Assembly (NCBI GenBank): GCA_964425075.1
Contig: CAYRKM010000001.1
Coordinates: 106,137-170,136, forward strand
Origin: an uncultured Gammaproteobacteria bacterium
GTDB taxonomy: Bacteria > Patescibacteriota > Microgenomatia > Levybacterales > GWA1-39-11
Direction of reading: 5' to 3'
Length of the DNA: 64,000 bases
Under the pieces are notes generated by a model, which worked only from the letters and a program-made list of their open reading frames with translations, did not search any database and had not been told where the DNA came from. Positions 20,614 to 43,130 of the stretch are shown here, piece by piece (the stretch's first letter is position 1; each line of letters opens with the position of its first letter). A program made the position numbers and the translations under genes.

Positions 20614-23600
20614 ATGGAATTCCTTGAACTATTCAAAAGACAACTTACACAAACTTCAAATGGTATTTCAAAAATAAGCCTGAAGAACTATCTTTCTGAT
20701 ATTCGTCACTTTATTAACTGGTTTGAGTACACCACAGGGAACACTTTTTCACCAAAAAATATTACCGCAGAGGTAATTGAGCTATATATTGCATCCCAGG
20801 GAGCAGTAATTTCAGACGGAAACCTTTCAACCCAAGACAAACTTTCGCCAAGCTCTATGAAAAGACATCTTTCCTCGCTTCGAAAGTTTGTCTCGGTGCT
20901 CAAAAAAGAAAACCTACTTGAAGAAAATCCGTTTGAGGAAATTAACCAGACAAATGAAGAACAGAATTACGATTATTGGCACTTTGATTCATTTAAAGAT
21001 TATTTGCTCCAAAATAATGCCTCAAAATTAACCGTAAAAAATTATCTTTCTGATATAAAAGGTTTTGCAAGTTGGTACGAACAGGCAATATTACCTACGC
21101 TTATTTCCCCTCTCACCTCAACTAATGGTGCTTATCGGATCTCTCAAGAAATAGTTCAGGAATATAAAGACAGATTGTTTAATATACAATCATCAGCTCC
21201 ACGCACAATTAACCGCAAACTGTCTTCACTCCGCCGATATTTGGAGTTTGGAACGAATAAGGGCTTTATTAATCCTGGAGAAATAGTTCTACCTTCTATC
21301 CAAATAGGGAAAGAGGAGGCAGAACCTGTAAAGATTCAGCTAAAAGATCTTAATCAAACTCAAACTTTAGAAACAAAAAGCTATTCTTCCTTTCCTCCAG
21401 CAAGACTTCTTCAAAAGCTAGTTATTTTCCCTTATTTACTTCTTGAAGATGCCGTTGCCTCAAAAGTCGCAACAATTATGACTGGAAAAGAAATGATTGC
21501 AGGAATTGCACTTTCTCAATTAGATAAAGTGAAAATGAGCACTCGCGCTATAGTCAATGCTCAAAATCAATCAATTGACGCGATTTTGGGCGTAAGAAAT
21601 GTAAAAAAGGAATTCTATGCTCCTCACCAAGTACAATTATCTGGACTCCCTTTCCACAAAAAATTACTTTATCATGCACGATATACTAGACCAAAATGGT
21701 ATAAAACATATCATAGTTATCCATTTGTACATTATGCCCATTTTGCACTCCTTATAATCTTTGCAGTTGGAGTTGGGGTTGCAGCTTATCAGAATTTGGT
21801 AGGAAAAAATCAAAGACCAACCTTTGCCGCCCCCACGGCTCCACCGAGAATACTTTCATTTCAGGGAAGACTAACTGACGCAAGTGATAACCCAATTACA
21901 AGTGCAACGGATATCCGGTTTGCAATTTATAATGATCTTTCAGCATCAGGCGCTGCTCTTTTGTGGCAAGAAGTTCACTACGTTGTAACCCCTGACCAAG
22001 ATGGAATATTCTCCGTACTTTTGGGAACAAATGATGCAATACCTTCAACTGTATTTTCAGATAATGCAGGAACTTATCTTGGTGTTACAATCAACCAAAC
22101 ATCAGAACTTACGCCACGTCAAAGAATTGCCGCAGTTGCATACGCTACTAATTCTGAACAGCTTCAAGGAATGCCTCCTATTACCGCAGGTGGGGCTGGA
22201 ACCTCAAATGTTGTACTAGCACTTGATTCATCAGGTAATCTAACCATTGGTGGAAGCGCAGCTCCAACCTTTACAGCCTCGGGGGGTCAATTCAGACTAT
22301 CGGGTCAGCCTCTTGTTCTAAATACAAATTCAAGTTCAAATGGAAATATCGTTCTTGCTCCTGATGGACTTGGAAGGATAGATCTTCAAAAACCACTAGT
22401 AAATAGTGGAACTTCAGGGAACATTACTCCAGGGGGAGTTGAGGTAAATGATAAATTTGGAGTTCTTGCAACAGAATCGGGAGTCGCATCATTTGTTATC
22501 AACAACAATGGTTCAAGCGACATTTTTACAGCCTCATCATCGGGATCTCCTCGCTTTACTATCTCAACAACAGGCGCTCTTACTATTCCAACATATAACA
22601 CAAATGGTGGAATCTTCTATGCAAATGGTTCGGGAGTTGTTGCACAGACAACTGCAGGAAGCTCGGGGGAATGTTTGCAGTCAATTGGAGGAGGAACACC
22701 AACTTGGGGATCTTGCGGAAGCGGCAGCGGAAGTCTTTGGAGATTATCAAGTGGCGCTTTATCTCCCATAAATGATACTGCGGATGTATTGATTGGAAGT
22801 AATGCTACAGCAAGCGCGAAATTCGCATTCATAAATGTTGCTGGGGGAACACCAACAGCTTCAATCTCTGCAAGTAGCGGAAACAATTGGACAACATTAA
22901 GCGGAGATGGAATTTTGGGAACAACAAACAAACAAACACTTTCTATAGGAAACAGCTCGACAGGAATTATTGCAATTAATTCTCCCGAGAACAGTAAAAC
23001 CTCAATTGGAACAGGCTCAACACTTGGAACACTTAAGATTTCAGGTCAGTCTCCGGGAAAAGCTTTAGTAAACCTCCAATATCTAGGGTCTGGTCAAAAT
23101 ATTTTGGTTGCATCAAATTCCGCCGGAACCAATGTCTTTACTATCGAGGAGGACGGAGACATTATTGTGGGAAATGCGGGTGCAGGCAAATTGACAGCTG
23201 CAATAATTGACCCTTATCTAATCCAAAATCAATACACGTCAGTTACTCCCGAACTTATTTTCCAAACAATGGCAGCTACAAGTGGAGACTTTATATATAA
23301 AAACCAATCAACCGAGCTTGCACGCCTTGCCCAAGCCGGACAATTTCAACTTCCAATAACAGGCTCTTCAGGAGGACTTGTAATTGGAGCTGACACACAG
23401 CTTTTTAGAGGCTCTGCCGATAGGCTTGATTTAGCATCAGGCGACTCATTTAATCTTGTTTCGGGTAGCATTCAAATTGGCGGAACTACGGTTATTGACT
23501 CCTCACAAAATGCAACATTCAGCAGCCTAACTGTTACTGGTGGATGTACGGGTTGTGTAAGCGCATCAGATTCACCTTTTAAGGTATTAAGTGGTGCAAT

Positions 23601-26600
23601 TGTACCACTCAACTCAACGCTTGACTTCACTCTTGGTGGTCAATCAAGCGCATCAGCAAAATTTGCAGTACTTAATATCGGCACAGGAACACCCACAGCT
23701 TCAATCTCTGCAAATTCTGGAGATAATGCTCTATATATAACAGGAGACGGTTCTCTTGCAACAACCAATAGACAAAGCCTAACAATTGGAAATTCATCAA
23801 CATATAACACAACGGGAAATGTGCTGATAAATTCTAATGCAACCGGCAATGTTGGGTTAAGAACCGCAACGCCTACAAGTTTCAACGTAGAATTTGCGGG
23901 AAGCCTTGGACCAGCAGTAGATAATTCCTCTGTTCTTGGATCTGCATCAAGGAGATTAAATTCTATATATTTAGGTGACGGTGGTCTCCAAGCTGTAGGC
24001 AATGCCGGAACTTCCGGATCTGTAAATATCAATACAGCTGCAAGTGCTGTTACGGTCACTAGATACGGACAAAGGATATTGAATAATACGTTAAATACTA
24101 CAACAGACGGAATTGATAAATATGGACTTTATATCAACAACACAGGTTCTTTTACAGGACTGACAGGAACTTCTACCAATAACTACTCTTTATACATCTC
24201 TACACCTTCAGGTGCTGATAACAATTATTCTATATATTCAGCGGGTGGAACAAATTACCTTGCAGGAAATACAGGACTTGGTACAACAACACCGACAGCT
24301 CTTCTTGATGTAGCAGGTACTGCTTCTGTTTCAGGGGCTTTGAAGCTATATGGAACTCCTACCATCCAATCTACTGCAAATCAAACATTGACACTAGGTG
24401 GAGATACAACTGGAAGTATTGTGCTTTCACCTCTCAATGGTTCGGGGACAATTCAACTTACAAATTTTACTACAAACGGTGGCTTAATATATACTAATGG
24501 ATCAGGTGTACTGGCTCAAACCGGTGCAGGAAGCGCTACTCAATGTTTGCTTGGAGGCACTACTCCTACTTATGGCAGTTGTGCAACTGGAACAACCGTA
24601 ACACCTTTCCAAGAATTAACTGGTGCAATAGTACCAAATAATTCAACTCTGGACTTCCTAATTGGAGGGCAAGCAACAGCAAGTGCTAAATTTGGAATAT
24701 TAAATATAGCCGGAGGAACACCAACCGCCTCAATTAGTGCAAATAATGGGAATATAGCAACTTACCTTGCCGGTGACGGGACTCTTGCAACTACAAATAG
24801 GCAAACTTTAACTATTGGTAATTCCTCTACATACAACACAACGGGAGAAGTACTAATAAATCCTAATGGAACTGGAAATGTAGGCGTCGGGACAACAAGC
24901 GCAAGGTCAAAATTCCATGTTGCCAATGCTTACTCAGGCCAAGCAACACCTAATGCCTCTTCTATCTTAACAATTGAAAACAATGCTAATGCATATTTAA
25001 GTTTTCTTACACCGGCCAATGTTCAGAGCGGTATCCTTTTTGGAAGTCCTACAAATTCAGCTCAAGGACAAATTACCTACAATCATTCTTCAAATTATTT
25101 AAATTTTTATACAGGAGGAGCTGATAGGGCTAGAATTACAAGCACGGGTTTTGGAATCGGCATGACTTCACCAATATCTCAACTTCATGTTTCAAGAAGT
25201 GCAGCGGCTACGGGCAAAGCATTGGCTGTTTTTGATCAAACGGAAAGTCAAGATATAATAACAGCTTCTGCTTCTGGTATTACAAAGTTTGCAATTACAA
25301 ACAGTGGGGTTTTGCAACTTGTTGGTGGACAAACTTCAGATATTGATACTTTAACAAATGCTACTCTAAATATTGGGGCGACAAATGCCACCACTATTTC
25401 TATTGGTCGATCAAGCCAAGGTATTACACTTCCTGGATTTACTGGTCAAAATGGAATACTTTATGGAACTTCAGGAACTGGAGTATTAGCTCAAGCGACT
25501 ACTGCCTCTACTGGTCTTTGTCTACTCTCAGGAGCCGCAAATCCAGCTTGGGGAACTTGTCCAACAACAGGAAATTCAAGCTCAAACTGGACACTGAACT
25601 CAACAGATGGAACTCTTTATCCAATAAATAGTACTCTTGATGTATTAATAGGTAATACTGCATCAACTTCTGCCAAATTTGCATTCTTAAATGTTGCTGG
25701 AGGAGTACCCACAGCTTCAATTTCTGCAAATACAGCTGATAACAATACTTTCTTAACAGGAGCTGGTAACCTTGCAACAACCAACAAACAAACCCTAACA
25801 CTTGGGGGCAGCACAACAGGAGGAATAGTTATTGATTCAGGAAGCTCCTCAATAAATCTTGCGGATGATACCTCTATAACAGGTAATATTACTGGCTCAG
25901 GTACAACTGGACTTACTCTCACGGGTGCTGGAGCTGGAATTACCTTCTCAGGAAGTGGACTTCATGAAATAGGTGCCTCATCAGGAACTCTTCGAATTGG
26001 AACACACACACTAACCGGCGCAATAACCGGAGGAAATCAAAATATCAGCTCAATTGGTAACATCTCAGCGAATTCTTCCTCAAATACATTAACTGGTTTT
26101 GGAACAATTGGAACTTCTGGAACTACTGCTTTCGTTGGCACCAACCTAACCCTAGCAGGTGCTGCAACTGATATAACTTCAGGTGCCAATCAAGACTTGG
26201 CAATAACTGCAAATGGTACAGGAAACCTAATACTTACCACAGATTTTGATACTAGCGTAAAAGTTGGTACATCAAATAATATCATGGCACCTCTTTCGGT
26301 ATCTGGAGGTATCGGATCTAATGCTGGATTTATCCTAGATCAACTTAATGATGGGGACTTATTCACTGCCTCTGCTGCTGGGGTTACTAAATTTACTTTC
26401 ACAAACGGCGGGTCGCTTAACCTTACAGGTGGTCAAACAATAGATACTTTAGCTTCCGGAACTCTAGGAATTGGCACTACAACAGCTACTACTCTTACGT
26501 TGGGCAGAAGTGGACAAGGGATTACACTTCCAGGCTTTACGGGTCAAAATGGAATACTTTATGGAACTTCAGGAACTGGAGTACTTGCACAGGCCACGAC

Positions 26601-29577
26601 TGGCACTCCTAGTCTTTGTCTTCTCTCAGGAGCCTCAAATCCAACCTGGAGCACTTGCCCAACCTCAGGAAGTTCTAATTGGACTCTTGATACAGCTGCT
26701 GGTGTGATACGTCCAAACAACAATACAGTTGATTTTCTATTAGGTGGAACAGCAACTGCAAGCGCTAAATTTGCAGTTCTAGGGATTAATGGAGCTACAG
26801 TTCCAACTGCATCACTTTCTGCAACAACCGCTTCCGGCGGCGATGGAAATGGTATTACTCTAAGTGGAGATGGATCAATACAAAGCTTGAGAAATAATAC
26901 ATTAACGCTAGGAGGAGCCACAACTGGAAGTATCCAATTCAAACCAGGCAATATTTCAACTCCTTCACTCTACCTTGCAACCGGCGGAAATGTGGGAATT
27001 GGAATAGCAGCTCCAACAGAACTTCTTCATTTGTATAAAACAACTGGTAATTATGCAACATTACGGTTTGATTCAGGAACTACCCAAGGATATGCCTTCT
27101 CATATGACGGAGATAATAGTGTAAATATAGGAGCAAATAGTAGCAGTCTATTGCACTTAAGAACGAGTAATGCAGCAAGAGCAACAATCCTTGCAAGCGG
27201 AGAATTCGGTATTGGTACTACGACCCCTGTCTCTCAATTACATGTAACAAGGGCGCTCTCCCTTGGAGCAACTGGAAAAGCCTTGGGGATATTTGACCAG
27301 ATAGAGAACCAGGACATCTTTACGGCCTCCTCTGCAGGTATCACGAAGTTTGTTATGGGAAATGATGGAAGAATTGGCATAAATACTGCTGCCTCACCTA
27401 CAGGAGTTAACCCACTTGCAATGCTTCAGGTTTACTCAAGTCTTGGCACTACTCCAGCAGCTTCAATTTCAGCTACAACTGCTAACGCTGTCCTTAGAGT
27501 AGACCAGAATGGAGTTGGGGATTTCATAGTTGCTTCAAAAGCTGGTCAAACATATTTCAAGATAACTGCAAGTGGAGATGCAGAAATTGGAGTTAATGCG
27601 GGTGGAAAACTTAATGCAGGAACCGTTGACCCTCCTTATACTATTGATGGAGAAGGATATGCTACTTATATGCCTTCAATGATAGGTGTAAAGGAAGAAT
27701 ATGCAGGAAAAGCCGTCCTTTCTTATGATTCTCGTGCAGGTGCTTACGTATATAAATTAGACTTCAATAACTTTGAGAGACAATCTGACCAGTGGGTTTA
27801 TAACCGCATTATCGATCCTGATATTTCCAATGTTTCGGTTTTGATGACTCCAAATTCAGCAGCGCGCACATGGTACAAAAAAGATGGTACAAATCGCACC
27901 ATAACTCTATATGCAGATAGACCTGTTGAAATTTCTTATAGATTAACTGCTCCAAGATTTGATCATGATAAATGGAAAACTTATACAGGTATTCCAAAGG
28001 GACATATTGCTCCACCGCCAACAATTAACGGTAGTTCAGAAAACGACAACAACATGGAGGTTGATCCTTACTTTGCAACTCTTTCTATAAATGAAGAAAA
28101 CGGACAATATGTTCTAAAAGATTCATACAATAACAAAGTGAATCATATTGATGCATTCTCAAAAACAATTTCTGCCAAGATTGAGGCGGGATGGGTACAA
28201 GCCAAAAAGATAACTTCTGACACAATTTCTGCAGGAAGTGCTAATTTCAACAACCTTACAGCCTCAACTCTTGCGCTAACGAGTGACTCAATAACAATTA
28301 GTGGCCAAAATCTTCGCGACTTTATAGTTGCGACAGTTCAAAATGCAGGCTTAACTCAAAATGGCAATGAAATTATCTCCCCTCTTGCATCAATTGACAT
28401 GATAAAAACAAATGTAATTTCACCACTTGCTGAAGAAGGTTCAGTTGCTCTTCACATAAATCCAAACGACCTTACTCTTAAAAATACGCAGACAGGTGAA
28501 ACGGTTGCAAAGATTGATAATCAGGGTAATTTAAATGCCCGAAGCGCGAGCTTCTCAGGAACACTTGAATCAGAAGTTGCCTTATTTGACAGTGCAAGCG
28601 TATCAGGCAATTTAGCAACCAACACTCTTCAAGCCAATAATGCTTCAGTTGCTGGAACTTTGAGGGCTGACAAGATTATCGCAAATGATATTGAAGGCAT
28701 TGATAACCGCATCTCATCAATTGCAAACAACCTCATCAATACAGCCTCAGGCTCAGGCAGCTTTACAGATGGAGGCAATTTGGCAGTTGGTTCTCTTAAT
28801 GCCCAATTTGGATTATTTGAGCAAGGAATAGTATCTCTTGGTTCAGGAACATTTACTCAACTTACTGCAATGGACTCTATCTCTATTGGTCAAGGATTTA
28901 TTTTAGGCAATAATTCAATTAATACATTGGGTGCAGATCTAGAAATCCAACCGCTTCGCCAGGGAAATATTTCATTCATGGCGGGACGAGTCACGATTGA
29001 CACCGATGGAAATATGGCGGTAGACGGAAATATTAGCATACAGGGTAATTTGGCTGCCGCACGCGGAATATTTAGCGACACTATAGAATCCCGTGCATTA
29101 GTTACTAACATAATCTCACCACTTGCTGATAAAGATTTGGTGTTCAAGCTTAATGGTGAAAGTTTTGCCTCAAATTCAGGTAAACTTCAAATTCAAAATA
29201 CCCAAGGAAACCAGGTATTGGCAATTAATAACAAGGGAGATATTATCTCTTCCGGATCTGCAAGGTTTGGCAAGCTTAACCTTTCCCTAGTGGGTAAGGC
29301 TGAGGCTATAAATGAAAACGAAGCAGTTGCAACAGGAAGCGCAGGATTTGCAACCCTAAAGAGAGGAAGAACTGAGCTTACTATCATTAATCCAAATGTT
29401 ACTAAGGACTCACTTATTTACGTTACTCCATTTGGGGACACAAGCAACAAGGTCATATATTTATTGCGCCAAACTCCAAATGAACCTGAGAATGGTATAC
29501 AAGGATCATTTACGGTCGGGGTTTCGGGAACTACTACGACACAGGACTTACAATTTAACTGGCTTGTTGTGAATTAA
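20614..29577 (+). CDS. giant (2987 aa) single-pass membrane protein: cytoplasmic N-terminus with two tandem tyrosine-recombinase N-terminal SAM-like (core-binding) domains, one TM helix (~aa 374-396), huge extracellular region with >=5 tandem ~130-aa Cys-pair repeat modules and a C-terminal Gly/Asn/Ser-rich fibre-like region
   Basis: aa ~15-110 and ~135-225 each match the integrase SAM-like/core-binding pattern (LKNYLSDIRHFINWFE..ITAEVIELYIA..MKRHLSSLRKFVSVLKKENLLEENPFEEI; and LTVKNYLSDIKGFASWYE..ISQEIVQEYKDRL..RKLSSLRRYLEFGTNKGFINPGEI). TM is YAHFALLIIFAVGVGVAAYQNLV, preceded by the basic stretch HARYTRPKWYKTYH. Repeat consensus ..NG(I/L)(L/F)YxxGSGVLAQ(A/T)T(A/T)GSxxxCLLSG..NP.WG.CP...(N)WTL....G.(I/L).P.N.T.D.L(I/L)GG.A(T/S)ASAKFA.LN(V/I)AGGTPTASISAN.(G/A)(D/N)N....(L/T)G.G.LATTN(K/R)Q(T/S)LT(I/L)G.S(T/S)T. 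Confidence 0.8.
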   Translation: MEFLELFKRQLTQTSNGISKISLKNYLSDIRHFINWFEYTTGNTFSPKNITAEVIELYIASQGAVISDGNLSTQDKLSPSSMKRHLSSLRKFVSVLKKENLLEENPFEEINQTNEEQNYDYWHFDSFKDYLLQNNASKLTVKNYLSDIKGFASWYEQAILPTLISPLTSTNGAYRISQEIVQEYKDRLFNIQSSAPRTINRKLSSLRRYLEFGTNKGFINPGEIVLPSIQIGKEEAEPVKIQLKDLNQTQTLETKSYSSFPPARLLQKLVIFPYLLLEDAVASKVATIMTGKEMIAGIALSQLDKVKMSTRAIVNAQNQSIDAILGVRNVKKEFYAPHQVQLSGLPFHKKLLYHARYTRPKWYKTYHSYPFVHYAHFALLIIFAVGVGVAAYQNLVGKNQRPTFAAPTAPPRILSFQGRLTDASDNPITSATDIRFAIYNDLSASGAALLWQEVHYVVTPDQDGIFSVLLGTNDAIPSTVFSDNAGTYLGVTINQTSELTPRQRIAAVAYATNSEQLQGMPPITAGGAGTSNVVLALDSSGNLTIGGSAAPTFTASGGQFRLSGQPLVLNTNSSSNGNIVLAPDGLGRIDLQKPLVNSGTSGNITPGGVEVNDKFGVLATESGVASFVINNNGSSDIFTASSSGSPRFTISTTGALTIPTYNTNGGIFYANGSGVVAQTTAGSSGECLQSIGGGTPTWGSCGSGSGSLWRLSSGALSPINDTADVLIGSNATASAKFAFINVAGGTPTASISASSGNNWTTLSGDGILGTTNKQTLSIGNSSTGIIAINSPENSKTSIGTGSTLGTLKISGQSPGKALVNLQYLGSGQNILVASNSAGTNVFTIEEDGDIIVGNAGAGKLTAAIIDPYLIQNQYTSVTPELIFQTMAATSGDFIYKNQSTELARLAQAGQFQLPITGSSGGLVIGADTQLFRGSADRLDLASGDSFNLVSGSIQIGGTTVIDSSQNATFSSLTVTGGCTGCVSASDSPFKVLSGAIVPLNSTLDFTLGGQSSASAKFAVLNIGTGTPTASISANSGDNALYITGDGSLATTNRQSLTIGNSSTYNTTGNVLINSNATGNVGLRTATPTSFNVEFAGSLGPAVDNSSVLGSASRRLNSIYLGDGGLQAVGNAGTSGSVNINTAASAVTVTRYGQRILNNTLNTTTDGIDKYGLYINNTGSFTGLTGTSTNNYSLYISTPSGADNNYSIYSAGGTNYLAGNTGLGTTTPTALLDVAGTASVSGALKLYGTPTIQSTANQTLTLGGDTTGSIVLSPLNGSGTIQLTNFTTNGGLIYTNGSGVLAQTGAGSATQCLLGGTTPTYGSCATGTTVTPFQELTGAIVPNNSTLDFLIGGQATASAKFGILNIAGGTPTASISANNGNIATYLAGDGTLATTNRQTLTIGNSSTYNTTGEVLINPNGTGNVGVGTTSARSKFHVANAYSGQATPNASSILTIENNANAYLSFLTPANVQSGILFGSPTNSAQGQITYNHSSNYLNFYTGGADRARITSTGFGIGMTSPISQLHVSRSAAATGKALAVFDQTESQDIITASASGITKFAITNSGVLQLVGGQTSDIDTLTNATLNIGATNATTISIGRSSQGITLPGFTGQNGILYGTSGTGVLAQATTASTGLCLLSGAANPAWGTCPTTGNSSSNWTLNSTDGTLYPINSTLDVLIGNTASTSAKFAFLNVAGGVPTASISANTADNNTFLTGAGNLATTNKQTLTLGGSTTGGIVIDSGSSSINLADDTSITGNITGSGTTGLTLTGAGAGITFSGSGLHEIGASSGTLRIGTHTLTGAITGGNQNISSIGNISANSSSNTLTGFGTIGTSGTTAFVGTNLTLAGAATDITSGANQDLAITANGTGNLILTTDFDTSVKVGTSNNIMAPLSVSGGIGSNAGFILDQLNDGDLFTASAAGVTKFTFTNGGSLNLTGGQTIDTLASGTLGIGTTTATTLTLGRSGQGITLPGFTGQNGILYGTSGTGVLAQATTGTPSLCLLSGASNPTWSTCPTSGSSNWTLDTAAGVIRPNNNTVDFLLGGTATASAKFAVLGINGATVPTASLSATTASGGDGNGITLSGDGSIQSLRNNTLTLGGATTGSIQFKPGNISTPSLYLATGGNVGIGIAAPTELLHLYKTTGNYATLRFDSGTTQGYAFSYDGDNSVNIGANSSSLLHLRTSNAARATILASGEFGIGTTTPVSQLHVTRALSLGATGKALGIFDQIENQDIFTASSAGITKFVMGNDGRIGINTAASPTGVNPLAMLQVYSSLGTTPAASISATTANAVLRVDQNGVGDFIVASKAGQTYFKITASGDAEIGVNAGGKLNAGTVDPPYTIDGEGYATYMPSMIGVKEEYAGKAVLSYDSRAGAYVYKLDFNNFERQSDQWVYNRIIDPDISNVSVLMTPNSAARTWYKKDGTNRTITLYADRPVEISYRLTAPRFDHDKWKTYTGIPKGHIAPPPTINGSSENDNNMEVDPYFATLSINEENGQYVLKDSYNNKVNHIDAFSKTISAKIEAGWVQAKKITSDTISAGSANFNNLTASTLALTSDSITISGQNLRDFIVATVQNAGLTQNGNEIISPLASIDMIKTNVISPLAEEGSVALHINPNDLTLKNTQTGETVAKIDNQGNLNARSASFSGTLESEVALFDSASVSGNLATNTLQANNASVAGTLRADKIIANDIEGIDNRISSIANNLINTASGSGSFTDGGNLAVGSLNAQFGLFEQGIVSLGSGTFTQLTAMDSISIGQGFILGNNSINTLGADLEIQPLRQGNISFMAGRVTIDTDGNMAVDGNISIQGNLAAARGIFSDTIESRALVTNIISPLADKDLVFKLNGESFASNSGKLQIQNTQGNQVLAINNKGDIISSGSARFGKLNLSLVGKAEAINENEAVATGSAGFATLKRGRTELTIINPNVTKDSLIYVTPFGDTSNKVIYLLRQTPNEPENGIQGSFTVGVSGTTTTQDLQFNWLVVN

Positions 29578-29611
29578 CGAAGTCAATTTAATGATAAATG
29601 CTAAATGATAT

Positions 29612-29995
29612 ATGGTAAACAATAATACAAACAAGTATGCAAATGTAGAGGAATTACCTGTATGGCAAAAGGCTCATGAATTTACTCTCCTAATCTATAA
29701 GCATTCCTCCGTGTTTCCTTCTTCTGAAGTATATGGTCTCACATCTCAAATCAGAAGATCTACCTCATCCATTCCTGCAAATATAAGCGAAGGATTTTAT
29801 AGAAAAAGTACCAAAGAACTTATTCAATTTATTTATAATGCACGTGGCTCTCTTGGAGAGACTCTTTATCACATTCGATTGGCGAAAGATCTAAAATATT
29901 TAGATGAAAAAACATTTTTATTACTTCGTTCAGAAGCTGAAGATATCAGCAAGCAAATGAACGGCTGGTTAAAAAGCTTAAAATCCAAACTCTAA
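29612..29995 (+). CDS. four-helix-bundle protein of the 23S-rRNA-intervening-sequence / Avd (DGR accessory variability determinant)-like family
   Basis: LPVWQKAHEFTLLIYKHSSVFPSSEVYGLTSQIRRSTSSIPANISEGFYRKSTKELIQFIYNARGSLGETLYHIRLAKDLKYL matches the family signature as I recall it (VWQKAH.L.L.IYK....FPK.E.YGLTSQ(I/L)RRAA.SI.(A/S)NIAEG..R.S.KE...FL.IA.GS..E...). 127 aa. Confidence 0.75.
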   Translation: MVNNNTNKYANVEELPVWQKAHEFTLLIYKHSSVFPSSEVYGLTSQIRRSTSSIPANISEGFYRKSTKELIQFIYNARGSLGETLYHIRLAKDLKYLDEKTFLLLRSEAEDISKQMNGWLKSLKSKL

Positions 29996-30052
29996 TTTTA
30001 CTCCTTCATTTACCATCCACCCACTTATTTACCATTCACCATCAACCATTTA

Positions 30053-32185
30053 TCATTTAATTATGTAGCTTATTTCAATTGCTGTAAAACCAGAGCGTAC
30101 AATGGGGTCAAAAACAGGTGGTTTGGGTGAAAGGCTTGGCTTAGTTTCAAACTGTTCAATGTAAAAAACGATGTTTCGGTAAGTATCGGGTTGACGACTA
30201 AAATAAATCGGTAAAATTTGTTTTGATAAACTGTTGTCATAAAAAGATAAAAATACATAAGGCGAATTAATATGATTTTTAGCGAAATTCACGGCGTCTT
30301 CAGTTTCTCTTTGATTTAAACCAAAATTTATTGCATATTCACGAATTGTTTTATCAATACTTGAGGCATCTATAACTTTTCCATATGCAGGCCGCTCAAG
30401 TTTCATATCTGGATTGTAGTTAAAAGATATATTCTCAACGGATTTTCCGTTTGCAACAAAGGAGCCATTATTGCCTAAAGTAATTTTGAAACCTTCCTCA
30501 GGATTGTAGGCAGTATTTACGGAATAAATTGGTATTCCAACGGACACCTTCAAATTTGTTCCCTCTTCTCCGTACAAATATAACGGGCATGTTCCTGAGC
30601 ACATATTTGTAGCATTGTTTACGCAAGAAGCTTGCTCAGCACCATCAGTAAGAGTTCCACAGGCTTGTGCTGCTGCTGTTTGTGTACAGTCCAATTGAGA
30701 AGTATTATTTGCGTTCGTTGATGAAGGGAAATTATTCCTTGCGATTCTTACAGGTGCAAGCGTTGGTTTTACAACAAATGTATCAAGTTGCAATTGTTCT
30801 CTTTGCGGTTTGACTGCGTTTCTACCCAAAACTGCTGAATCAAAAAAATTTGCATCTGTTAGTGCTATGAATTGTATAAAAGAATCATTATGATTTACAG
30901 CTACACGCTCACCTGTTTTTTGGTCAAAAATGGATACCGCACTAAGAGACTGTTCGTATCTTGCTCCAAGATTTCCCATAGCAGATTGACCGGTAGCAAC
31001 GCTTGTTAGTAAGAGTTTTCCGTTAGATAAAGAGGTTTTAATGGTGTTTACAGATGTTTTAGATGAATCATCATACGCAATGTCAAAATCTATCTTTTTT
31101 GAAGAATTTTGACTAAATGAATAGCTGTGTGTTTCAAGAGATTTCGTTGTAGAGTTTACAACTTGGTATAGAATGTCTCCTGTTGTTAAATCAAAAGTAG
31201 CTGAAGTAAAGACATCATCTCCTTGAGCTGTTATTAATTTTGTCCTGCTTTTTGTTGTAACATCTAATGTTTCTATGGTATTTGCAACCGAAAATACTCT
31301 TTTTGCTCCATTCACAATTTGAGTTCCGTCACCTCTCGCCCCATCATAACCCACAAAAACAAATTTTGATTCATCCTCTGAAAGCGTGGGTTGATTAGCA
31401 TAGGTCCCATCTTGCATAGAAGTAAGATCCCCCCTGCTTGTTCCTGTAAAATTAGAAACGCTCATGCCATATGACCATCCCATGCCAGCGTTTGGTATAA
31501 ATTTATTAACATAAATTTCACCACTACTTGTAATTGCAATGGGATAGCGAATTGTGTTTCCGGGAGTTGCAACCTCGTCATAAATTAAGTTTTTTTGTCC
31601 AGGATTTTGTATATCAATGCTATAAATCCTTGATTTTGCGTCTATAAGCTGAGGGGAATCTGAGGCTAGACTTAATTCCCAGGTTGTTATATATCTACCG
31701 TTTTTAGACACAAAGTAGTCATCTATTCCAAAATTCTCTTCTGCAGTTACAATCACTGTTTCTTTTTTAGAAGAAATATCATAAAGAACAAGAGACTTTG
31801 CATAGTCTCGCGCATCTGTATCTTTTAGAAATAAAAGCTCGTTATTCGATAGAACTTTTACGTTCTTAATATTGGTTGGTAGAGTTGCAAGTGTGGCAGC
31901 TGTATTTGTTGAAAGATCCGTAACTTCAATCACAGAGGAGCTTCCTGCCCAATATCCATACACTAAAGCATTATCGGACAAAAATTTTTTTTCAACTGTC
32001 TGTTTTTGTTGGTTTTGAGAAGACTTGCTATTGTTTTGACGGGCTGAATTCCATGCAAACGCGCCTCCAAATAAAATAATCACAACTAGCAAAACCACTA
32101 CTCCTTTTATATTGGTTCTAGGATCTACTTTCTGAAACCAAGAACTTTGGTTGACTTGTACCTGGGGCTGATTATTTTCTTCCAC
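30053..32185 (-). CDS. N-terminally TM-anchored beta-propeller (TolB/WD40-like) protein with Cys-containing conserved C-terminal domain; tandem paralog of 32235..34370
   Basis: N-terminal TM (GVVVLLVVIILFGGAFAW). Repeated propeller-blade-like segments. C-terminal ~110 aa nearly identical to the paralog. Confidence 0.55.
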   Translation of the reverse strand: MEENNQPQVQVNQSSWFQKVDPRTNIKGVVVLLVVIILFGGAFAWNSARQNNSKSSQNQQKQTVEKKFLSDNALVYGYWAGSSSVIEVTDLSTNTAATLATLPTNIKNVKVLSNNELLFLKDTDARDYAKSLVLYDISSKKETVIVTAEENFGIDDYFVSKNGRYITTWELSLASDSPQLIDAKSRIYSIDIQNPGQKNLIYDEVATPGNTIRYPIAITSSGEIYVNKFIPNAGMGWSYGMSVSNFTGTSRGDLTSMQDGTYANQPTLSEDESKFVFVGYDGARGDGTQIVNGAKRVFSVANTIETLDVTTKSRTKLITAQGDDVFTSATFDLTTGDILYQVVNSTTKSLETHSYSFSQNSSKKIDFDIAYDDSSKTSVNTIKTSLSNGKLLLTSVATGQSAMGNLGARYEQSLSAVSIFDQKTGERVAVNHNDSFIQFIALTDANFFDSAVLGRNAVKPQREQLQLDTFVVKPTLAPVRIARNNFPSSTNANNTSQLDCTQTAAAQACGTLTDGAEQASCVNNATNMCSGTCPLYLYGEEGTNLKVSVGIPIYSVNTAYNPEEGFKITLGNNGSFVANGKSVENISFNYNPDMKLERPAYGKVIDASSIDKTIREYAINFGLNQRETEDAVNFAKNHINSPYVFLSFYDNSLSKQILPIYFSRQPDTYRNIVFYIEQFETKPSLSPKPPVFDPIVRSGFTAIEISYIIK

Positions 32186-32234
32186 AGTTAAATAGTAGAC
32201 TTAAAGATATATTCATGTCAAGAAAATTTAATGA

Positions 32235-34370
32235 TTACCTAACGATGGAGCTTATCTCGATTGCTGTAAAACCAAAACGCACAATGGGGTCAAAGACAGG
32301 AGGTTTGGGTGAAAGGTTTGGCTTAGTTTCAAACTGTTCAAAATAGAACACAATGTTTCGATATGTATCAGGATGTATCGAAAAGTATAGAGGTAGGATT
32401 TGTTTTGAGAGATTATCATCATAAAATGAAACGTACACATAGGGGCTTGTAATTTCTTTTGCAAACATCACACTATCTTCTGTTTCCTTTTGATTAAATC
32501 CTAATTTTTCAGAATATTCCTTAATGGTTTGCTTGAGATCTGAAAGTTTTACAATTTTTCCGTAAGAAGGTCTAGATAATTTTCTGATGGCAGATGTGTA
32601 ATCAAAGGAGATACTTTCAACTACACTTCCATTTGCCCGAAACTTCCCATCCGATAAAAGCGTAATATCAAATCCATTTTGAGGTAAATATAAAACATTT
32701 GTAGAAAAAATTGGAGTACCTACAGATACATTTAAACTAACTCCCTGTTGTCCATATAAATATAACGGGCTTCTATAACACGACCCCGATGTTCCATCTG
32801 CATCTGTCCATGATTGAATAAAACACCCGTCTTTTGTGTCAAGACCCGCACACTGCTGCTGCAAAAGATCACTTCCACAACCCCTGTCTATTGGGGTATT
32901 TTGTATAGGACCTTGTTGAGGCGGTTGACTTTGGTTTATTTCTCGCACTGGAGCAAGTGTAGGTTTTACTGCAAATGTTTCCAATTGAAGCTGCTTTCCC
33001 TGAGAATTAATTGATTTATTTGCCTGCTTGTTTGCATTTAAATTAGAAGTTTTAAAGTATTTAGAACCTTTTAAGGCTATAAATTGCACGTACCCACCAT
33101 TTAGGCTAACTCGTTCACTGCTTCCTGATTTTGGAGTAAAAACTGACAAACTACTTATTGATGGTTCATAACTAAAACCTAGATTCCCAAGCGCTGAGTC
33201 CGAAAGAACACTTTCTGATAACAATAAACTCCCTCCCTGAAGAGATGACCGCACCGATCCTCTATTACCTTCCGGAAGGTCAACTTTTTTAGAGGAATGA
33301 GTGTCAAAATAATATTTATTTATGTCCCTGCCAGTTTTATCATCATAAGAAGCGTAAATTATATTTCCGTCTTGTAAATCCCATTGCGCCTTCTGGTAAA
33401 TTCCGTCAATACCCGAAACCAATTTGGTTCTGATTTTTGTATTTGTATCAAAAACTTCAATAGTATTAGGAGTAACAGACGCTCTTCTGTAACCATTCAC
33501 AATTTCCACACCATCCCCTTTACTACCATCATAGCCTATAAAAAGTATTTTTCCCCCGTCCGGTGATATTATTGGTTGGCTTGAATATGTTCCGTTGGCC
33601 ATTGAAGCAATTTCTGACTTAACTGAACCTGTAAAATTGCTCATACTCATACCATAAGCCCAACCCACACCCGAATTTGGCAAAAATTTATCCATAAAAA
33701 TCTCACCATTATCCGTTATTCCAACAGGATAATGCACTGCAATACCTACGGGCGCAGCCTCATCATAAATTAAATTTTTACTTCCTGGTTTTGAAATATC
33801 AACACTATAAACTCTTGAACGACCTCCCGATAGTATTGATGAATTTGGTGCTGGGCTTATTTCCCATATGGCAATATATTTACCATTTGGTGAAACCACA
33901 TATAAATCAATTCCATACCCTGAATCTGTAGTGGATATAACATTCTCAGTACTATCACTAATCCTATAACTAACAACGCTCTTCCCATAGTCAGATGCGT
34001 CAGTATCTTTTATAAAAATTAAATTGTCATCTGAAACAACACTAACCTGCTTGATGTTATTTGGCAAAACGGCAAGTGTGCTGTTTGTGCTTGTTGATAG
34101 ATCTACTGACTCAATAACTGAATTTTTATCAACCCAATAACCATATACTACTGAATTGTCTGCAAGAAATTTTGTCTCTGTAGACTGCTTTTGTTGTTCT
34201 GTCTCTTTTTTTGAAGAATTTCTCTCAGAATTCCATGCAATCGCACCTCCAAACAAAATAATCACAACTAGCAAAACCACTACTCCTTTTATATTGGTTC
34301 TAGGATCTACTTTCTGAAACCAAGAACTTTGGTTCACCTGAACCTGATGAGGCTGATTATTTTCTTCCAT
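32235..34370 (-). CDS. N-terminally TM-anchored beta-propeller protein; tandem paralog of 30053..32185
   Basis: Same architecture. The first ~45 aa and last ~80 aa are nearly identical to the paralog at protein and DNA level. Confidence 0.55.
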   Translation of the reverse strand: MEENNQPHQVQVNQSSWFQKVDPRTNIKGVVVLLVVIILFGGAIAWNSERNSSKKETEQQKQSTETKFLADNSVVYGYWVDKNSVIESVDLSTSTNSTLAVLPNNIKQVSVVSDDNLIFIKDTDASDYGKSVVSYRISDSTENVISTTDSGYGIDLYVVSPNGKYIAIWEISPAPNSSILSGGRSRVYSVDISKPGSKNLIYDEAAPVGIAVHYPVGITDNGEIFMDKFLPNSGVGWAYGMSMSNFTGSVKSEIASMANGTYSSQPIISPDGGKILFIGYDGSKGDGVEIVNGYRRASVTPNTIEVFDTNTKIRTKLVSGIDGIYQKAQWDLQDGNIIYASYDDKTGRDINKYYFDTHSSKKVDLPEGNRGSVRSSLQGGSLLLSESVLSDSALGNLGFSYEPSISSLSVFTPKSGSSERVSLNGGYVQFIALKGSKYFKTSNLNANKQANKSINSQGKQLQLETFAVKPTLAPVREINQSQPPQQGPIQNTPIDRGCGSDLLQQQCAGLDTKDGCFIQSWTDADGTSGSCYRSPLYLYGQQGVSLNVSVGTPIFSTNVLYLPQNGFDITLLSDGKFRANGSVVESISFDYTSAIRKLSRPSYGKIVKLSDLKQTIKEYSEKLGFNQKETEDSVMFAKEITSPYVYVSFYDDNLSKQILPLYFSIHPDTYRNIVFYFEQFETKPNLSPKPPVFDPIVRFGFTAIEISSIVR

Positions 34371-34501
34371 ACTTCTATACTAGAAGTTTTTAACCTATTG
34401 TGTCAACTTTTTGACTTTACCCCGACTAGATCGTGGTTGACCCCGTTAGAAATTTTGAGAAATATTTCCTTTGATTTTTCAAACCAGTTTTTTTAACGGG
34501 G

Positions 34502-35089
34502 TTGACAAATATATTTACCTCCTTCTACTATATATGTATGGAACAGAACGTTGAAGTGCCCACAACTGCTAGCTCCACATCATTCCTCTCACGATATGTA
34601 ATGATTACATCTATTCTTGTTATCATCGGCGTTGCAGGAATTGCTATTTATTTACTTTTAAATAAAGGATCAATAAAACCTACCTCAAATAATCAAACTC
34701 TCGCCTCCTCCCCAAATTGCACGAATGAAAAAATTTATACTGATGTAAAAGAAGCGTTGCTTTTAGAAGGGCAAAAAATTTGCTACATTGATGCAAAAGC
34801 CCCAGACAAAGAATATGTTTTTCCTAGTGATATTGTCAAACATGCAAATACCCGAAATCTAGTCTATCTTTCACTTGATGGATATAACTTATCAGCTATG
34901 AGAGATTCACTTGAAGTTTTACAGGATTTAGAAGTTCTTAAACTCAAAAATGCACATTTGTCCGCACTTCCAAGGGGAATAGACAAACTTACAAAACTTA
35001 AAGAGCTCGATCTTTCAGGTAACGAATTCACTGAAACAGGAAAAAACGAAATCCACCAGAAATTCCCAAATGTAAAAATCAGCTTCTAA
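34502..35089 (+). CDS. TM-anchored leucine-rich-repeat (LRR) protein
   Basis: TM ITSILVIIGVAGIAIYLLL. LRR units LVYLSLDGYNLSAM / LEVLKLKNAHLSALPRGIDKLTKLKELDLSGNEF. The true start may be the internal Met (MEQNV.., nt 34538). Confidence 0.55.
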   Translation: MTNIFTSFYYICMEQNVEVPTTASSTSFLSRYVMITSILVIIGVAGIAIYLLLNKGSIKPTSNNQTLASSPNCTNEKIYTDVKEALLLEGQKICYIDAKAPDKEYVFPSDIVKHANTRNLVYLSLDGYNLSAMRDSLEVLQDLEVLKLKNAHLSALPRGIDKLTKLKELDLSGNEFTETGKNEIHQKFPNVKISF

Positions 35090-42934: not shown

Positions 42935-43130
42935 TCCTCGTCCCGATGCATATCGGGATCGAGGAGGGGGTGATATCCCACACTGTGCGAGGGAACAAAA
43001 TTAGCTCGACTTTCATTGCAAATTCTTTTTGGTACTTTTGTTAAGACAAAAGTACAAGAGTAAACATTGACCAGAGCTTTTGGTACTTTTGGCGGTTCAA
43101 AAGTACAAGAGAAAACAGCGACAAAAAAAC
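42935..43130. repeat. intergenic structured repeats: perfect palindrome CCTCGTCCCGAT-gcat-ATCGGGATCGAGG plus two tandem copies of the family hairpin (GTACTTTTG-n6-CAAAAGTAC-AAGAG)
   Basis: 43025-43063 and 43073-43112 each hold a 9-bp stem/6-nt loop hairpin. The second is preceded by ATTGACCAGAGCTTTTGG and followed by AAGAGAAAAC, as in copy B at 61468. Confidence 0.55.

What the first reader, a model, noticed from the sequence alone, without database searches (positions are those of the whole stretch)
30053..34370. Tandemly duplicated 710/711-aa TM-anchored beta-propeller proteins with homogenised termini
Two adjacent same-strand paralogs share nearly identical DNA at their 5' ends (~100 bp, for example GCACCTCCAAACAAAATAATCACAACTAGCAAAACCACTACTCCTTTTATATTGGTTCTAGGATCTACTTTCTGAAACCAAGAACTTTGGTT at 32000-32100 and 34250-34350) and at their 3' ends. 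The central propeller regions have diverged. The pattern suggests a recent duplication with diversification of the central domain, or ongoing gene conversion at the ends. The conserved Cys-containing C-terminal ~110-aa domain (..SPYV(F/Y)(L/V)SFYD..LSKQILP(I/L)YFS..PDTYRNIVFY(I/F)EQFETKP.LSPKPPVFDPIVR.GFTAIEIS) is not a domain I recognise. They sit directly downstream of the giant-protein/Avd pair on the opposite strand.
Basis: seen in the sequence. Interest (0 to 1): 0.5.

Follow-up and report, generated by a model that had tools for sequence, protein, structure and literature searches.

The report
Tandem surface-protein paralogs with gene-converted ends
Two neighbouring, anciently diverged copies of an uncharacterised membrane-anchored beta-propeller protein, in a genome whose named relatives are Candidatus Levybacteria, have had their first ~150 and last ~95 bases made alike by recombination; this is real, but it is a familiar way for surface-protein families to evolve.

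Summary
ORFs A (30053-32185, 710 aa) and B (32235-34370, 711 aa) are same-strand tandem paralogs, 53% identical. Synonymous divergence is saturated through the body (dS>1). It is only ~0.3 in codons 1-47 and in 31 codons near the 3' end (A 676-706, B 677-707), and the 5' block holds an 80-nt perfect match.

A syntenic relative (L001) carries only the B ortholog. B groups with L001 in the body, but A groups with B at both ends. The ends were therefore homogenised after that lineage split. This is gene conversion, not a recent duplication with a fast-diverging centre.

The same 3'-end homogenisation recurs in other tandem arrays of the family (L011, L017). A ~1-kb central segment has been replaced between close orthologs in two independent lineage pairs.

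Each protein has an N-terminal signal-anchor, a beta-propeller of the seven-bladed class, a four-Cys helical linker and a 184-aa C-terminal domain. That domain has no Pfam, NCBIfam or PDB match, yet it has about 4,400 cluster representatives; the named ones listed are Patescibacteria.

The neighbouring 'Avd' is a 23S-rRNA-IVP four-helix-bundle protein. No retroelement signature was found.

Verdict: a genuine but ordinary concerted-evolution and mosaic pattern, in an uncharacterised surface-protein family.

The parts
30053..32185 (-). Paralog A, 710 aa (GTG start). TM anchor aa 26-45, beta-propeller about aa 71-439, Cys-rich helical linker about aa 445-529, C-terminal domain aa 530-710.
   Evidence: ORF. 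53% identical to B. Domain limits transferred from the B model through the A/B alignment.
32235..34370 (-). Paralog B, 711 aa (ATG start). It is the positional ortholog of the single copy in the syntenic locus L001.
   Evidence: The AF2 model has pLDDT 83.3.
32045..32199 (-). 5' homogenised tract in A: about 15 nt upstream of the start plus codons 1-47 (cytoplasmic tail and TM helix).
   Evidence: 92-98% nucleotide identity to B, dS 0.28, an 80-nt perfect run, and A=B sites 22 vs 3 and 4.
34227..34384 (-). 5' homogenised tract in B: about 15 nt upstream of the start plus codons 1-48.
   Evidence: Same evidence as for A. B vs L001 here has dS 0.88, so there is no nucleotide-level constraint on this stretch.
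30068..30160 (-). 3' homogenised tract in A (codons 676-706, the last strands of the C-terminal domain).
   Evidence: 91% nucleotide identity, dS 0.36, A=B sites 22 vs 4 and 2.
32250..32342 (-). 3' homogenised tract in B (codons 677-707).
34233..34292 (-). B signal-anchor/TM helix (aa 27-46), preceded by R/K residues. This implies N-in, C-out topology.
   Evidence: AF2 helix at 27-46. One hydrophobic segment (19-residue window, mean Kyte-Doolittle score above 2) preceded by K/R is found in 38 of 40 family members examined.
33066..34157 (-). B beta-propeller (aa 72-435).
32790..33050 (-). B helical linker, with four Cys columns that are conserved across the family.
32238..32789 (-). B C-terminal domain (aa 528-711), a member of a large uncatalogued superfamily.
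32538..33584 (-). Central segment of B (aa ~263-611) that is not orthologous to L001 although its flanks are. It is a replaced cassette covering the later propeller blades, the linker and the first half of the C-terminal domain.
   Evidence: B-L001 pN steps from about 0.05 to 0.3-0.5 and back, and pS rises from about 0.45 to 0.7-0.8. The same breakpoints are seen in L011_2633 vs L017_10156.
32192..32221 (-). Promoter-like TTGACA-N18-TACTAT that ends 6 nt before the GTG start of A. A leaderless mRNA is inferred.
34377..34406 (-). Promoter-like TTGACA-N18-TAGTAT that ends 6 nt before the ATG start of B. It is conserved in L001.
34502..35089 (+). Divergent neighbour: a TM plus leucine-rich-repeat protein (true start probably the ATG at 34538). 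It has the same promoter architecture as A and B and is syntenic in L001.
29612..29995 (+).
   Evidence: PF05635 E 4e-37 and TIGR02436 E 1.7e-35; the Avd models score below their cutoffs. The PHROG Avd match is at superfamily level only.

Best explanation
A and B are old tandem paralogs of a surface-protein family whose named members are all Candidatus Levybacteria. Their bodies diverged long before this genome split from its nearest sampled relative. Homologous recombination between the two copies (non-reciprocal gene conversion) later overwrote two short tracts. One is about 150 nt at the 5' end: the -10 region and start codon through the cytoplasmic tail and TM helix. The other is about 95 nt near the 3' end: the last strands of the C-terminal domain. 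The result is two genes with shared ends and different centres.

Shown:
- The tracts and their low dS.
- The switch in phylogenetic signal along the gene.
- The absence of nucleotide-level constraint on the tracts in the ortholog comparison.
- Recurrence of 3'-end homogenisation in other arrays.
- Replacement of a ~1-kb central cassette between close orthologs in two lineage pairs.

Inferred:
- The recombination machinery. RadA, ComEA and ComEC are encoded in the window; recA was not seen.
- Why the tracts stay short. Conversion of the centre would erase two distinct binding specificities and would be selected against, whereas shared anchor and terminal segments are tolerated or favoured.
- What the proteins do. 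I infer a type-II membrane-anchored extracellular protein. The propeller would be a variable ligand-binding head. The C-terminal domain would be a surface module shared by many Patescibacteria proteins (VWA, ankyrin and Cys-rich fusions), probably involved in envelope or host-surface interaction.
For: 1. dS is 0.28 (codons 1-47) and 0.36 (31 codons near the 3' end), against 2 or more, or saturated, elsewhere. The codon-identity Fisher tests and the 80-nt run exceed every shuffle.

2. L001 is syntenic, 70-75% nucleotide identity across the F5/8-type-C gene, the LRR gene and B. Informative sites: in propeller aa 48-265, B=L001 at 195 vs 38 and 31. In the 5' tract, A=B at 22 vs 3 and 4. In the 3' tract, A=B at 22 vs 4 and 2. 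Tract dS (about 0.3) is lower than ortholog dS (about 0.8), so the ends were homogenised after the lineage split.

3. B-L001 dS within the 5' tract is 0.88, the same as the neighbouring body (0.81). The N-terminal 48 aa are the least conserved part of the family, with 19% mean identity. Between-locus nucleotide identity there has a median of 0.37, against 0.94 for A/B.

4. The 3' ends of tandem copies are also homogenised in L011 (0.92) and L017 (0.83-0.88), against a between-locus median of 0.49 and a 95th percentile of 0.62. Their bodies are no more alike than unrelated members.

5. Diverged tandem arrays of 2-3 copies are common in the family: L002, L005, L011, L017, L033.

6. Both copies are intact, keep all family-invariant residues and each has its own promoter-like element.
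Against: - Only one close outgroup (L001) is available. It is a single metagenomic contig and could itself be chimeric.
- The two tracts have similar dS, which would also fit a single event (see the first rival).
- The direction of conversion is not resolved.
- Two of the four independent lineages with intact arrays (L002, L033) show no homogenisation, so it is not a constant property of the family.
- No read-level or population data were available.
- The function of the proteins and of the C-terminal domain is entirely inferred.
Confidence: 0.72

Rival explanations
1. A more recent tandem duplication of B took place after the split from L001. The ~1.9-kb centre of one copy was then replaced in a single double-crossover with a divergent allele or paralog, for example DNA taken up from another strain. 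On this view the ends are alike by descent and the centre is foreign.
For: - Both tracts have nearly the same dS, 0.28 and 0.36.
- A's 5' tract resembles L001 (77-84% nucleotide identity) far more than its body does.
- Replacement of a central cassette demonstrably occurs in this family: B vs L001, and L011_2633 vs L017_10156.
- ComEA and ComEC are encoded in the window.
Against: - The demonstrated cassette replacements have breakpoints at about aa 263 and 600-612, next to conserved motifs, not at aa 47 and 677.
- Other arrays show 3'-only homogenisation among copies whose 5' ends are diverged, so end-specific conversion exists.
- Upstream of the -10 box the two promoter regions are not alike, while B's matches L001's.
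- No donor for A's centre was found. The best match is 44-55%, to B or L001.
Confidence: 0.2
2. A recent duplication followed by very fast divergence of the centre, through positive selection or targeted hypermutation. A diversity-generating retroelement linked to the neighbouring Avd-like gene would be one such mechanism.
For: - The centre is the most variable part, with pN up to 0.5-0.6.
- An Avd-superfamily four-helix-bundle gene lies next door.
Against: - Synonymous sites in the centre are saturated (pS about 0.7-0.8). Selection on the protein cannot produce that.
- Where B can be compared with its ortholog, dN/dS is about 0.1, i.e. purifying selection.
- Mismatches are not adenine-biased.
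- No reverse transcriptase among the 28 further window ORFs scanned, and no template/variable repeat pair.
- The Avd family models score below their cutoffs.
- The divergent span is about 1.9 kb, far larger than a retroelement's variable region (general knowledge).
Confidence: 0.02
3. The ends are kept alike by selection on the nucleotide sequence itself, for example a regulatory RNA structure, an sRNA target, an internal promoter or a recombinase site. No sequence exchange would then be needed.
For: - The 5' tract starts at the promoter and start codon of what look like leaderless mRNAs.
- 3'-end similarity recurs in other arrays.
Against: - The ortholog comparison B vs L001 shows ordinary or saturated synonymous divergence in both tracts: dS 0.88, and pS 0.80.
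- Between-genome nucleotide identity in these segments is the lowest or merely average for the gene.
- No Rfam match reached a family's gathering score; the only hit at E<=1 is RefA1, 20.5 bits against a gathering score of 94.
- The tandem pairs in L002 and L033 lack the pattern.
Confidence: 0.04
4. An assembly artefact: a collapsed or chimeric duplicate created by the assembler.
For: None from the sequence.
Against: - The copies differ at 39% of aligned nucleotides and have different lengths and indels.
- The shared tracts are themselves 2-10% diverged, and the longest perfect match is 80 nt.
- Both are complete ORFs that keep all family-invariant residues.
- Diverged tandem arrays are seen in five independent assemblies.
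Confidence: 0.02

Closest known systems
Helicobacter pylori babA/babB/babC (Hop-family outer-membrane adhesin paralogs)
   Same: [quoted passage not shown] Intragenomic homologous recombination (gene conversion) at the 5' and 3' regions generates chimeras (PMC4552749, read). The window pair shows the same end/centre/end pattern and the same inferred mechanism.
   Different: - There is no sequence or fold relationship. The bab products are outer-membrane proteins (PMC4552749), whereas these proteins have an N-terminal membrane anchor, a propeller and a new C-terminal domain.
- The bab loci are dispersed, while A and B are tandem.
- The homologous end regions are much longer in bab.
- No dinucleotide-repeat phase switch is seen here.
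- No function or host is known here.
Cassette-type antigenic-variation systems (Anaplasma msp2/p44, Neisseria pilE/pilS, Borrelia vlsE) - from general knowledge
   Same: Conserved flanks bracket a variable centre, and the centre is exchanged by segmental recombination. Here a ~1-kb centre has been replaced between close orthologs in two lineages.
   Different: There is no single expression site and no silent or partial donor cassettes. Both copies are full-length and have their own promoters. Only two copies are in the window, and only these two family hits in the database come from the 835,411-bp source contig. There is no evidence of switching within a population.
PD40/TolB-like and peptidase-S9 N-terminal beta-propellers
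   Different: Sequence identity is 5-13%. No Pfam propeller family reaches its cutoff. There is no attached peptidase or other catalytic domain. The partner domains (Cys linker and C-terminal domain) are unrelated to those of the matched proteins.
Diversity-generating retroelement accessory protein Avd, and the 23S-rRNA intervening-sequence four-helix-bundle proteins
   Same: The neighbour at 29612-29995 belongs to the same four-helix-bundle superfamily (PF05635 E 4e-37; PHROG 'Avd' 1.9e-10).
   Different: It fails the Avd-specific models. No reverse transcriptase, template/variable repeat or adenine-biased substitutions were found. It is not functionally tied to A or B by any evidence, and it is absent from the syntenic locus L001.

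Membership tests
Interlocus gene conversion / concerted evolution between paralogs | Two or more paralogous copies in one genome | tested here: met
   A and B are tandem, on the same strand and 49 nt apart.
Interlocus gene conversion / concerted evolution between paralogs | Discrete tracts whose divergence, including at synonymous sites, is significantly lower than in the rest of the genes | tested here: met
   dS is 0.28 and 0.36 against 2 or more; Fisher p = 2e-6 and 1e-3; an 80-nt run against a maximum of 37 in 5000 shuffles.
Interlocus gene conversion / concerted evolution between paralogs | Phylogenetic incongruence: within the tracts paralogs group by genome, outside them by orthology | tested here: met
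   Site patterns with L001 as third taxon. Within-locus vs between-locus identity distributions.
Interlocus gene conversion / concerted evolution between paralogs | Tract similarity is not explained by sequence-level constraint | tested here: met
   B-L001 dS in the tracts is 0.88 or saturated. No Rfam match reached a gathering score. The pattern is absent from L002 and L033.
Interlocus gene conversion / concerted evolution between paralogs | Direct observation of the exchange (population variants, experimental recombination) | not testable with these tools
   No reads, no strain series and no culture were available.
Beta-propeller fold (PD40/TolB-like class) | A closed toroid of four-stranded blades, by structure comparison | tested here: met
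Beta-propeller fold (PD40/TolB-like class) | Sequence-family membership (Pfam PD40, PF07676) | tested here: not met
   15.6 bits against a cutoff of 20.9 in B; no hit in A.
Diversity-generating retroelement | Avd accessory protein by its family model | tested here: not met
   NF033474 scores 28.5 against a cutoff of 80; PF22296 scores 27 against 40. The best family is PF05635 23S_rRNA_IVP.
Diversity-generating retroelement | A reverse transcriptase gene nearby | tested here: not met
   No RT family among the 28 further window ORFs scanned against Pfam. ORFs shorter than 120 aa were not scanned.
Diversity-generating retroelement | A template/variable repeat pair with adenine-specific differences | tested here: not met
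   The only repeats are the A/B tracts and the internal repeats of the giant ORF. Their mismatches are spread over all four bases.
Cassette-type antigenic variation (expression site plus silent donors) | Conserved flanks around a variable centre that is exchanged by recombination | tested here: met
   End tracts. Centre replaced between close orthologs in two lineage pairs.
Cassette-type antigenic variation (expression site plus silent donors) | Truncated or promoterless donor cassettes feeding one expressed gene | tested here: not met
   Both copies are full-length and each has a promoter-like site. There are no further copies or fragments in the window. The rest of the genome could not be read.
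C-terminal domain superfamily (uncatalogued; named members listed are Patescibacteria) | Profile-level homology over the whole domain, including the P-x-[IL]-Y-L-Y, LGLN..E, P.PD, FYF and R.GFT.[VI]E motifs | tested here: met
   hhalign of A4 vs A6 gives 99.8%, E 3.5e-30 over 181 columns. A broad-family HMM hits A and B at about 1e-23. 4,425 representatives.

The most novel reading that the evidence does not exclude
The family is a modular variation system for a surface protein of Patescibacteria, whose cultivated members are all episymbionts (abstract of PMC11623550). Conserved end blocks and two internal motif blocks (around GYDGSKG at aa ~280 and LGLNxKET at aa ~625) would serve as recombination anchors. 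Through these anchors a ~1-kb cassette (later propeller blades, Cys linker, first half of the C-terminal domain) would be swapped among paralogs and strains, re-tuning what the cell binds. The C-terminal domain would be a structurally new surface module used across much of the Patescibacteria.
Probability: 0.2. Interest if true: 0.6.

Novelty: new member of a known kind. Interest (0 to 1): 0.33.

Why it matters
Gene conversion between tandem paralogs with shared ends and different centres is textbook behaviour for bacterial surface-protein families, so the mechanism itself is not news.

Three things are worth keeping. First, it documents concerted evolution and cassette-like mosaicism in an ultra-small-genome lineage whose cell-surface biology is almost unknown. 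Second, it defines the architecture of a family with no annotation: signal-anchor, propeller, four-Cys linker and C-terminal domain. Third, the 184-aa C-terminal domain is confidently predicted and has about 4,400 cluster representatives, yet it has no Pfam, NCBIfam or solved-structure counterpart. That makes it a reasonable candidate for family curation and a structure determination.

If the central cassette does set binding specificity, these genes would be candidates for host-recognition determinants.

Tried and rejected
- Pfam, NCBIfam, PADLOC and PHROGs scans of A and B gave nothing above threshold.
- PDB sequence-profile searches with the full family, the C-terminal domain and the wider C-domain family gave nothing.
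- An Rfam scan of 29.4-35.3 kb found nothing above a gathering score.
- The retroelement reading was rejected.
- The genome-contig scan returned only one distant locus and not the source genome. An exact look-up of B's encoding contig failed, so the rest of the 835-kb genome could not be searched for further copies or fragments.
- The search for a donor of the replaced central cassettes found none. Best matches were 30-47%.
- The direction of conversion could not be resolved from the site patterns; with only 31-47 codons per tract the numbers are too small.
- The literature search found no description of this family.

Full report

Yes. The window carries two same-strand ORFs 49 nt apart. A is 30053..32185 (-, GTG start, 710 aa). 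B is 32235..34370 (-, ATG start, 711 aa). They align end to end at 53% amino-acid identity.

Repeat finding gives 137 nt at 90% at the 5' ends, continuing about 15 nt upstream of the start codons. It gives 205 nt at 78% at the 3' ends, with a 97-nt core at 90.7%. No third copy or fragment is present in the window.

**2. Is it more than chance or protein conservation?**

A codon alignment gives 61% nucleotide identity overall, with dS 1.75 and dN 0.41. The figures are 94% and dS 0.30 for codons 1-30, and 91% and dS 0.37 for codons 677-706.

With refined segments, dS is 0.28 (codons 1-47) and 0.36 (31 codons near the 3' end). It is 2 or more, or saturated, everywhere else.

Among codons that encode the same residue, the same codon is used 36 times against 7 in the 5' tract and 22 against 6 in the 3' tract. 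In the rest it is 138 against 164 (Fisher p = 2e-6 and 1e-3). The longest perfect match, 80 nt, exceeds the maximum of 37 seen in 5000 shuffles of codon columns.

**3. What produced it?**

Homology searching found 63 relatives. None has a function name, and the named ones are Candidatus Levybacteria. A and B are the only two from the 835,411-bp source contig.

The closest relative (P0002, 65% to B) lies on contig L001. L001 is syntenic with the window: an F5/8-type-C giant gene, an LRR gene, then a single family member. Nucleotide identity is 70-75%. L001 has an IS200-like Y1 transposase where the window has A and the four-helix-bundle gene.

Segment by segment:
- B and L001 are 86-89% identical in aa 48-262, with dS 0.81 and dN 0.08.
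- A is only about 54% identical to either of them there.

Three-taxon informative sites make the point:

| Segment | B=L001 | A=B | A=L001 |
|---|---|---|---|
| Propeller, first half | 195 | 38 | 31 |
| 5' tract | 3 | 22 | 4 |
| 3' tract | 4 | 22 | 2 |

So A is the older, deeper paralog in the body, yet it is B's nearest relative at both ends. Tract dS (about 0.3) is also below the B-L001 ortholog dS (about 0.8). The ends were therefore homogenised after the split from the L001 lineage. This is gene conversion, or concerted evolution.

The alternative of a recent duplication with a fast-diverging centre is excluded by the saturated synonymous divergence of the centre.

Sequence-level constraint is also excluded:
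- B-L001 dS inside the 5' tract (0.88) equals that of the adjacent body.
- The N-terminal 48 residues are the least conserved part of the family, with 19% mean identity.
- No Rfam match reached a gathering score.

**4. Is this a property of the family?**

A scan of JGI metagenomes returned 64 loci. Tandem arrays occur in L002 (2 copies), L005 (2, one frameshifted), L011 (2), L017 (3) and L033 (2).

For the last 31 codons, between-locus nucleotide identity has a median of 0.49 and a 95th percentile of 0.62. Within arrays it is 0.90 (window), 0.92 (L011) and 0.83-0.88 (L017). It is 0.51-0.54 in L002 and L033. Body identity within arrays (0.48-0.56) is no higher than between loci. 5'-end homogenisation is seen only in the window pair, at 0.94 against a median of 0.37.

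So 3'-end conversion recurs in at least two independent lineages, which favours end-specific conversion over a one-off event.

**5. A second layer of mosaicism.**

B and L001 are close in aa 1-262 and 612-676, but as far apart as unrelated members (about 43%) in aa ~263-611. There pN steps from about 0.05 to 0.3-0.5, and pS rises from about 0.45 to 0.7-0.8.

The positional orthologs L011_2633 and L017_10156 show the same thing with the same breakpoints. Their flanks are 84-88% identical with pN 0.06. Their centres are at most about 30% identical with pN 0.5. The neighbouring ortholog pair, L011_453 and L017_7979, is uniform. No donor was found.

The replaced segment covers the later propeller blades, the Cys linker and the first half of the C-terminal domain. 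It is bounded by family-conserved motif blocks. This looks like recombinational replacement of a central cassette. L001 is a single metagenomic contig, so some caution is due.

**6. What are the proteins?**

The AlphaFold2 model of B, built with 51 homologs, has pLDDT 83.3. It shows:
- a helix at aa 27-46;
- a beta-propeller at aa 72-435;
- a helical linker at aa 441-523;
- an alpha/beta domain at aa 536-711.

In 38 of the 40 family members examined there is one hydrophobic segment (19-residue window, mean Kyte-Doolittle score above 2) preceded by Lys/Arg. This fits an N-in signal-anchor. The linker carries four conserved Cys columns, which suggests that the bulk of the protein is extracytoplasmic (inference).

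**7. The C-terminal domain.**

A profile search of 1.84 billion cluster representatives found 4,425 proteins at E<=1e-3 and 1,783 at E<=1e-10. In the proteins listed the domain is usually C-terminal. It follows propellers, VWA domains or Cys-rich regions, and occurs three times in one ankyrin-repeat protein. The named sources among the relatives listed are Patescibacteria, including Saccharimonadales. hhalign confirms homology over the whole domain, at 99.8% and E 3.5e-30.

Other C-domain proteins sit next to family members in L007 and L051, and a few kb away in L021.

Its role is unknown. My working inference is a shared surface, envelope-interaction or assembly module.

**8. Neighbourhood.**

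The 'Avd' at 29612-29995 is a 23S-rRNA-IVP four-helix-bundle protein (PF05635 E 4e-37, TIGR02436). It falls below the Avd-specific cutoffs. PHROG 'Avd' matches at superfamily level only.

None of the 28 further window ORFs scanned against Pfam is a reverse transcriptase. No template/variable repeat exists. Mismatches in the repeats are not adenine-biased. There is no retroelement here.

The surrounding genes encode surface proteins: a 2,987-aa repetitive giant, a 1,208-aa F5/8-type-C protein, a pilin-like protein and a TM-LRR protein. Housekeeping genes are also present, so this is a chromosomal region. ComEA, ComEC and RadA are encoded in the window, so DNA uptake and recombination functions are present.

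**9. Comparison with what is known.**

The closest analogue is the H. pylori bab (Hop) adhesin family. [quoted passage not shown] The resemblance is in how the genes evolve, not in descent. The proteins are unrelated, the genes here are tandem, and the tracts are much shorter.

Cassette-type antigenic variation shares the 'conserved flanks, exchanged centre' logic. Its defining silent donor cassettes were not found.

I therefore file this as a new member of a known kind (concerted evolution and mosaic recombination in a surface-protein family), carried by an uncharacterised protein family with an uncatalogued C-terminal domain.

**10. Verdict.**

The recent-duplication alternative, the 'Avd' label and the ~110-aa domain extent are not. 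Interest is moderate to low for the mechanism. The widespread unannotated domain and the recurrent central-cassette replacement add some value.

Noticed in passing
window 29570-29622 and 30025-30077: The only inverted repeat of 45 nt or more in the whole 64-kb window brackets the four-helix-bundle (23S-rRNA-IVP family) gene. It is 53 nt, 72% complementary, with the arms 402 nt apart. The left arm overlaps the stop of the giant ORF. The right arm overlaps the last 8 codons of A. The syntenic locus L001 lacks this gene. It could be a cassette-like insertion or a bidirectional terminator.
   Followed up: partly
window 32183-32221 (-), 34368-34406 (-), 34502-34540 (+): The pattern TTGACA-N18-TA(C/G)TAT-N6-start codon occurs exactly three times in the window (0.16 expected by chance). 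It sits in front of A, B and the divergent TM-LRR gene. With 6 nt between the -10 box and the start codon and no Shine-Dalgarno sequence, leaderless and possibly co-regulated mRNAs are implied. B's version is conserved in L001.
   Followed up: partly
L011 2633-4873 vs L017 10156-12408; window 32538-33584 vs L001: In two independent pairs of close orthologs, a ~1-kb central segment (B aa ~263-611) is as diverged as in unrelated family members, while the flanks are 80-89% identical. The breakpoints are the same in both pairs. No donor was found.
   Followed up: yes
window 12870-15869 (-): The leucyl-tRNA synthetase ORF (999 aa) carries a Ser_hydrolase/alpha-beta-hydrolase match (PF06821, E 1.4e-11, aa 250-404). 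It sits between the N-terminal catalytic-core match (PF00133, aa 21-226) and the editing domain (aa 423-588), which is an unusual insertion.
   Followed up: no
L001 7600-8061: The syntenic relative has an IS200-like Y1 transposase where the window has paralog A and the four-helix-bundle gene. This is consistent with loss of A, or a rearrangement, in that lineage.
   Followed up: partly
L005 4328-6539: In GCA_964531275.1 the copy upstream of P0006 is split into 589-aa and 158-aa ORFs that overlap by about 30 nt. This is a frameshifted family member, either a pseudogene or a sequencing error. As in L002, the array is followed by a dCTP deaminase gene.
   Followed up: no
P0145 (1120 aa; representative protein, no locus): An ankyrin-repeat protein carries three internal copies of the C-terminal domain. 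The domain is therefore not restricted to C-termini or to propeller proteins.
   Followed up: partly
L007 4771-5865, L051 1283-2419, L021 3-1352, L060 1186-3804: Other proteins that share only the C-terminal domain (Cys-rich or unrelated N-terminal parts) are encoded next to propeller family members in L007, L051 and L060, and about 4.5 kb away in L021. This hints at a functional link between C-domain proteins.
   Followed up: partly
window 43027-43122: Two 45-nt direct repeats (80% identical, 51 nt apart) each contain the hairpin GTACTTTTG...CAAAAGTAC. They lie between the TPR gene and the LysM/M23 peptidase gene.
   Followed up: no
window 22752-26675: The 2,987-aa giant ORF contains internal repeats of about 1 kb period, 65-83% identical at the DNA level. 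Their mismatches are not adenine-biased.
   Followed up: partly
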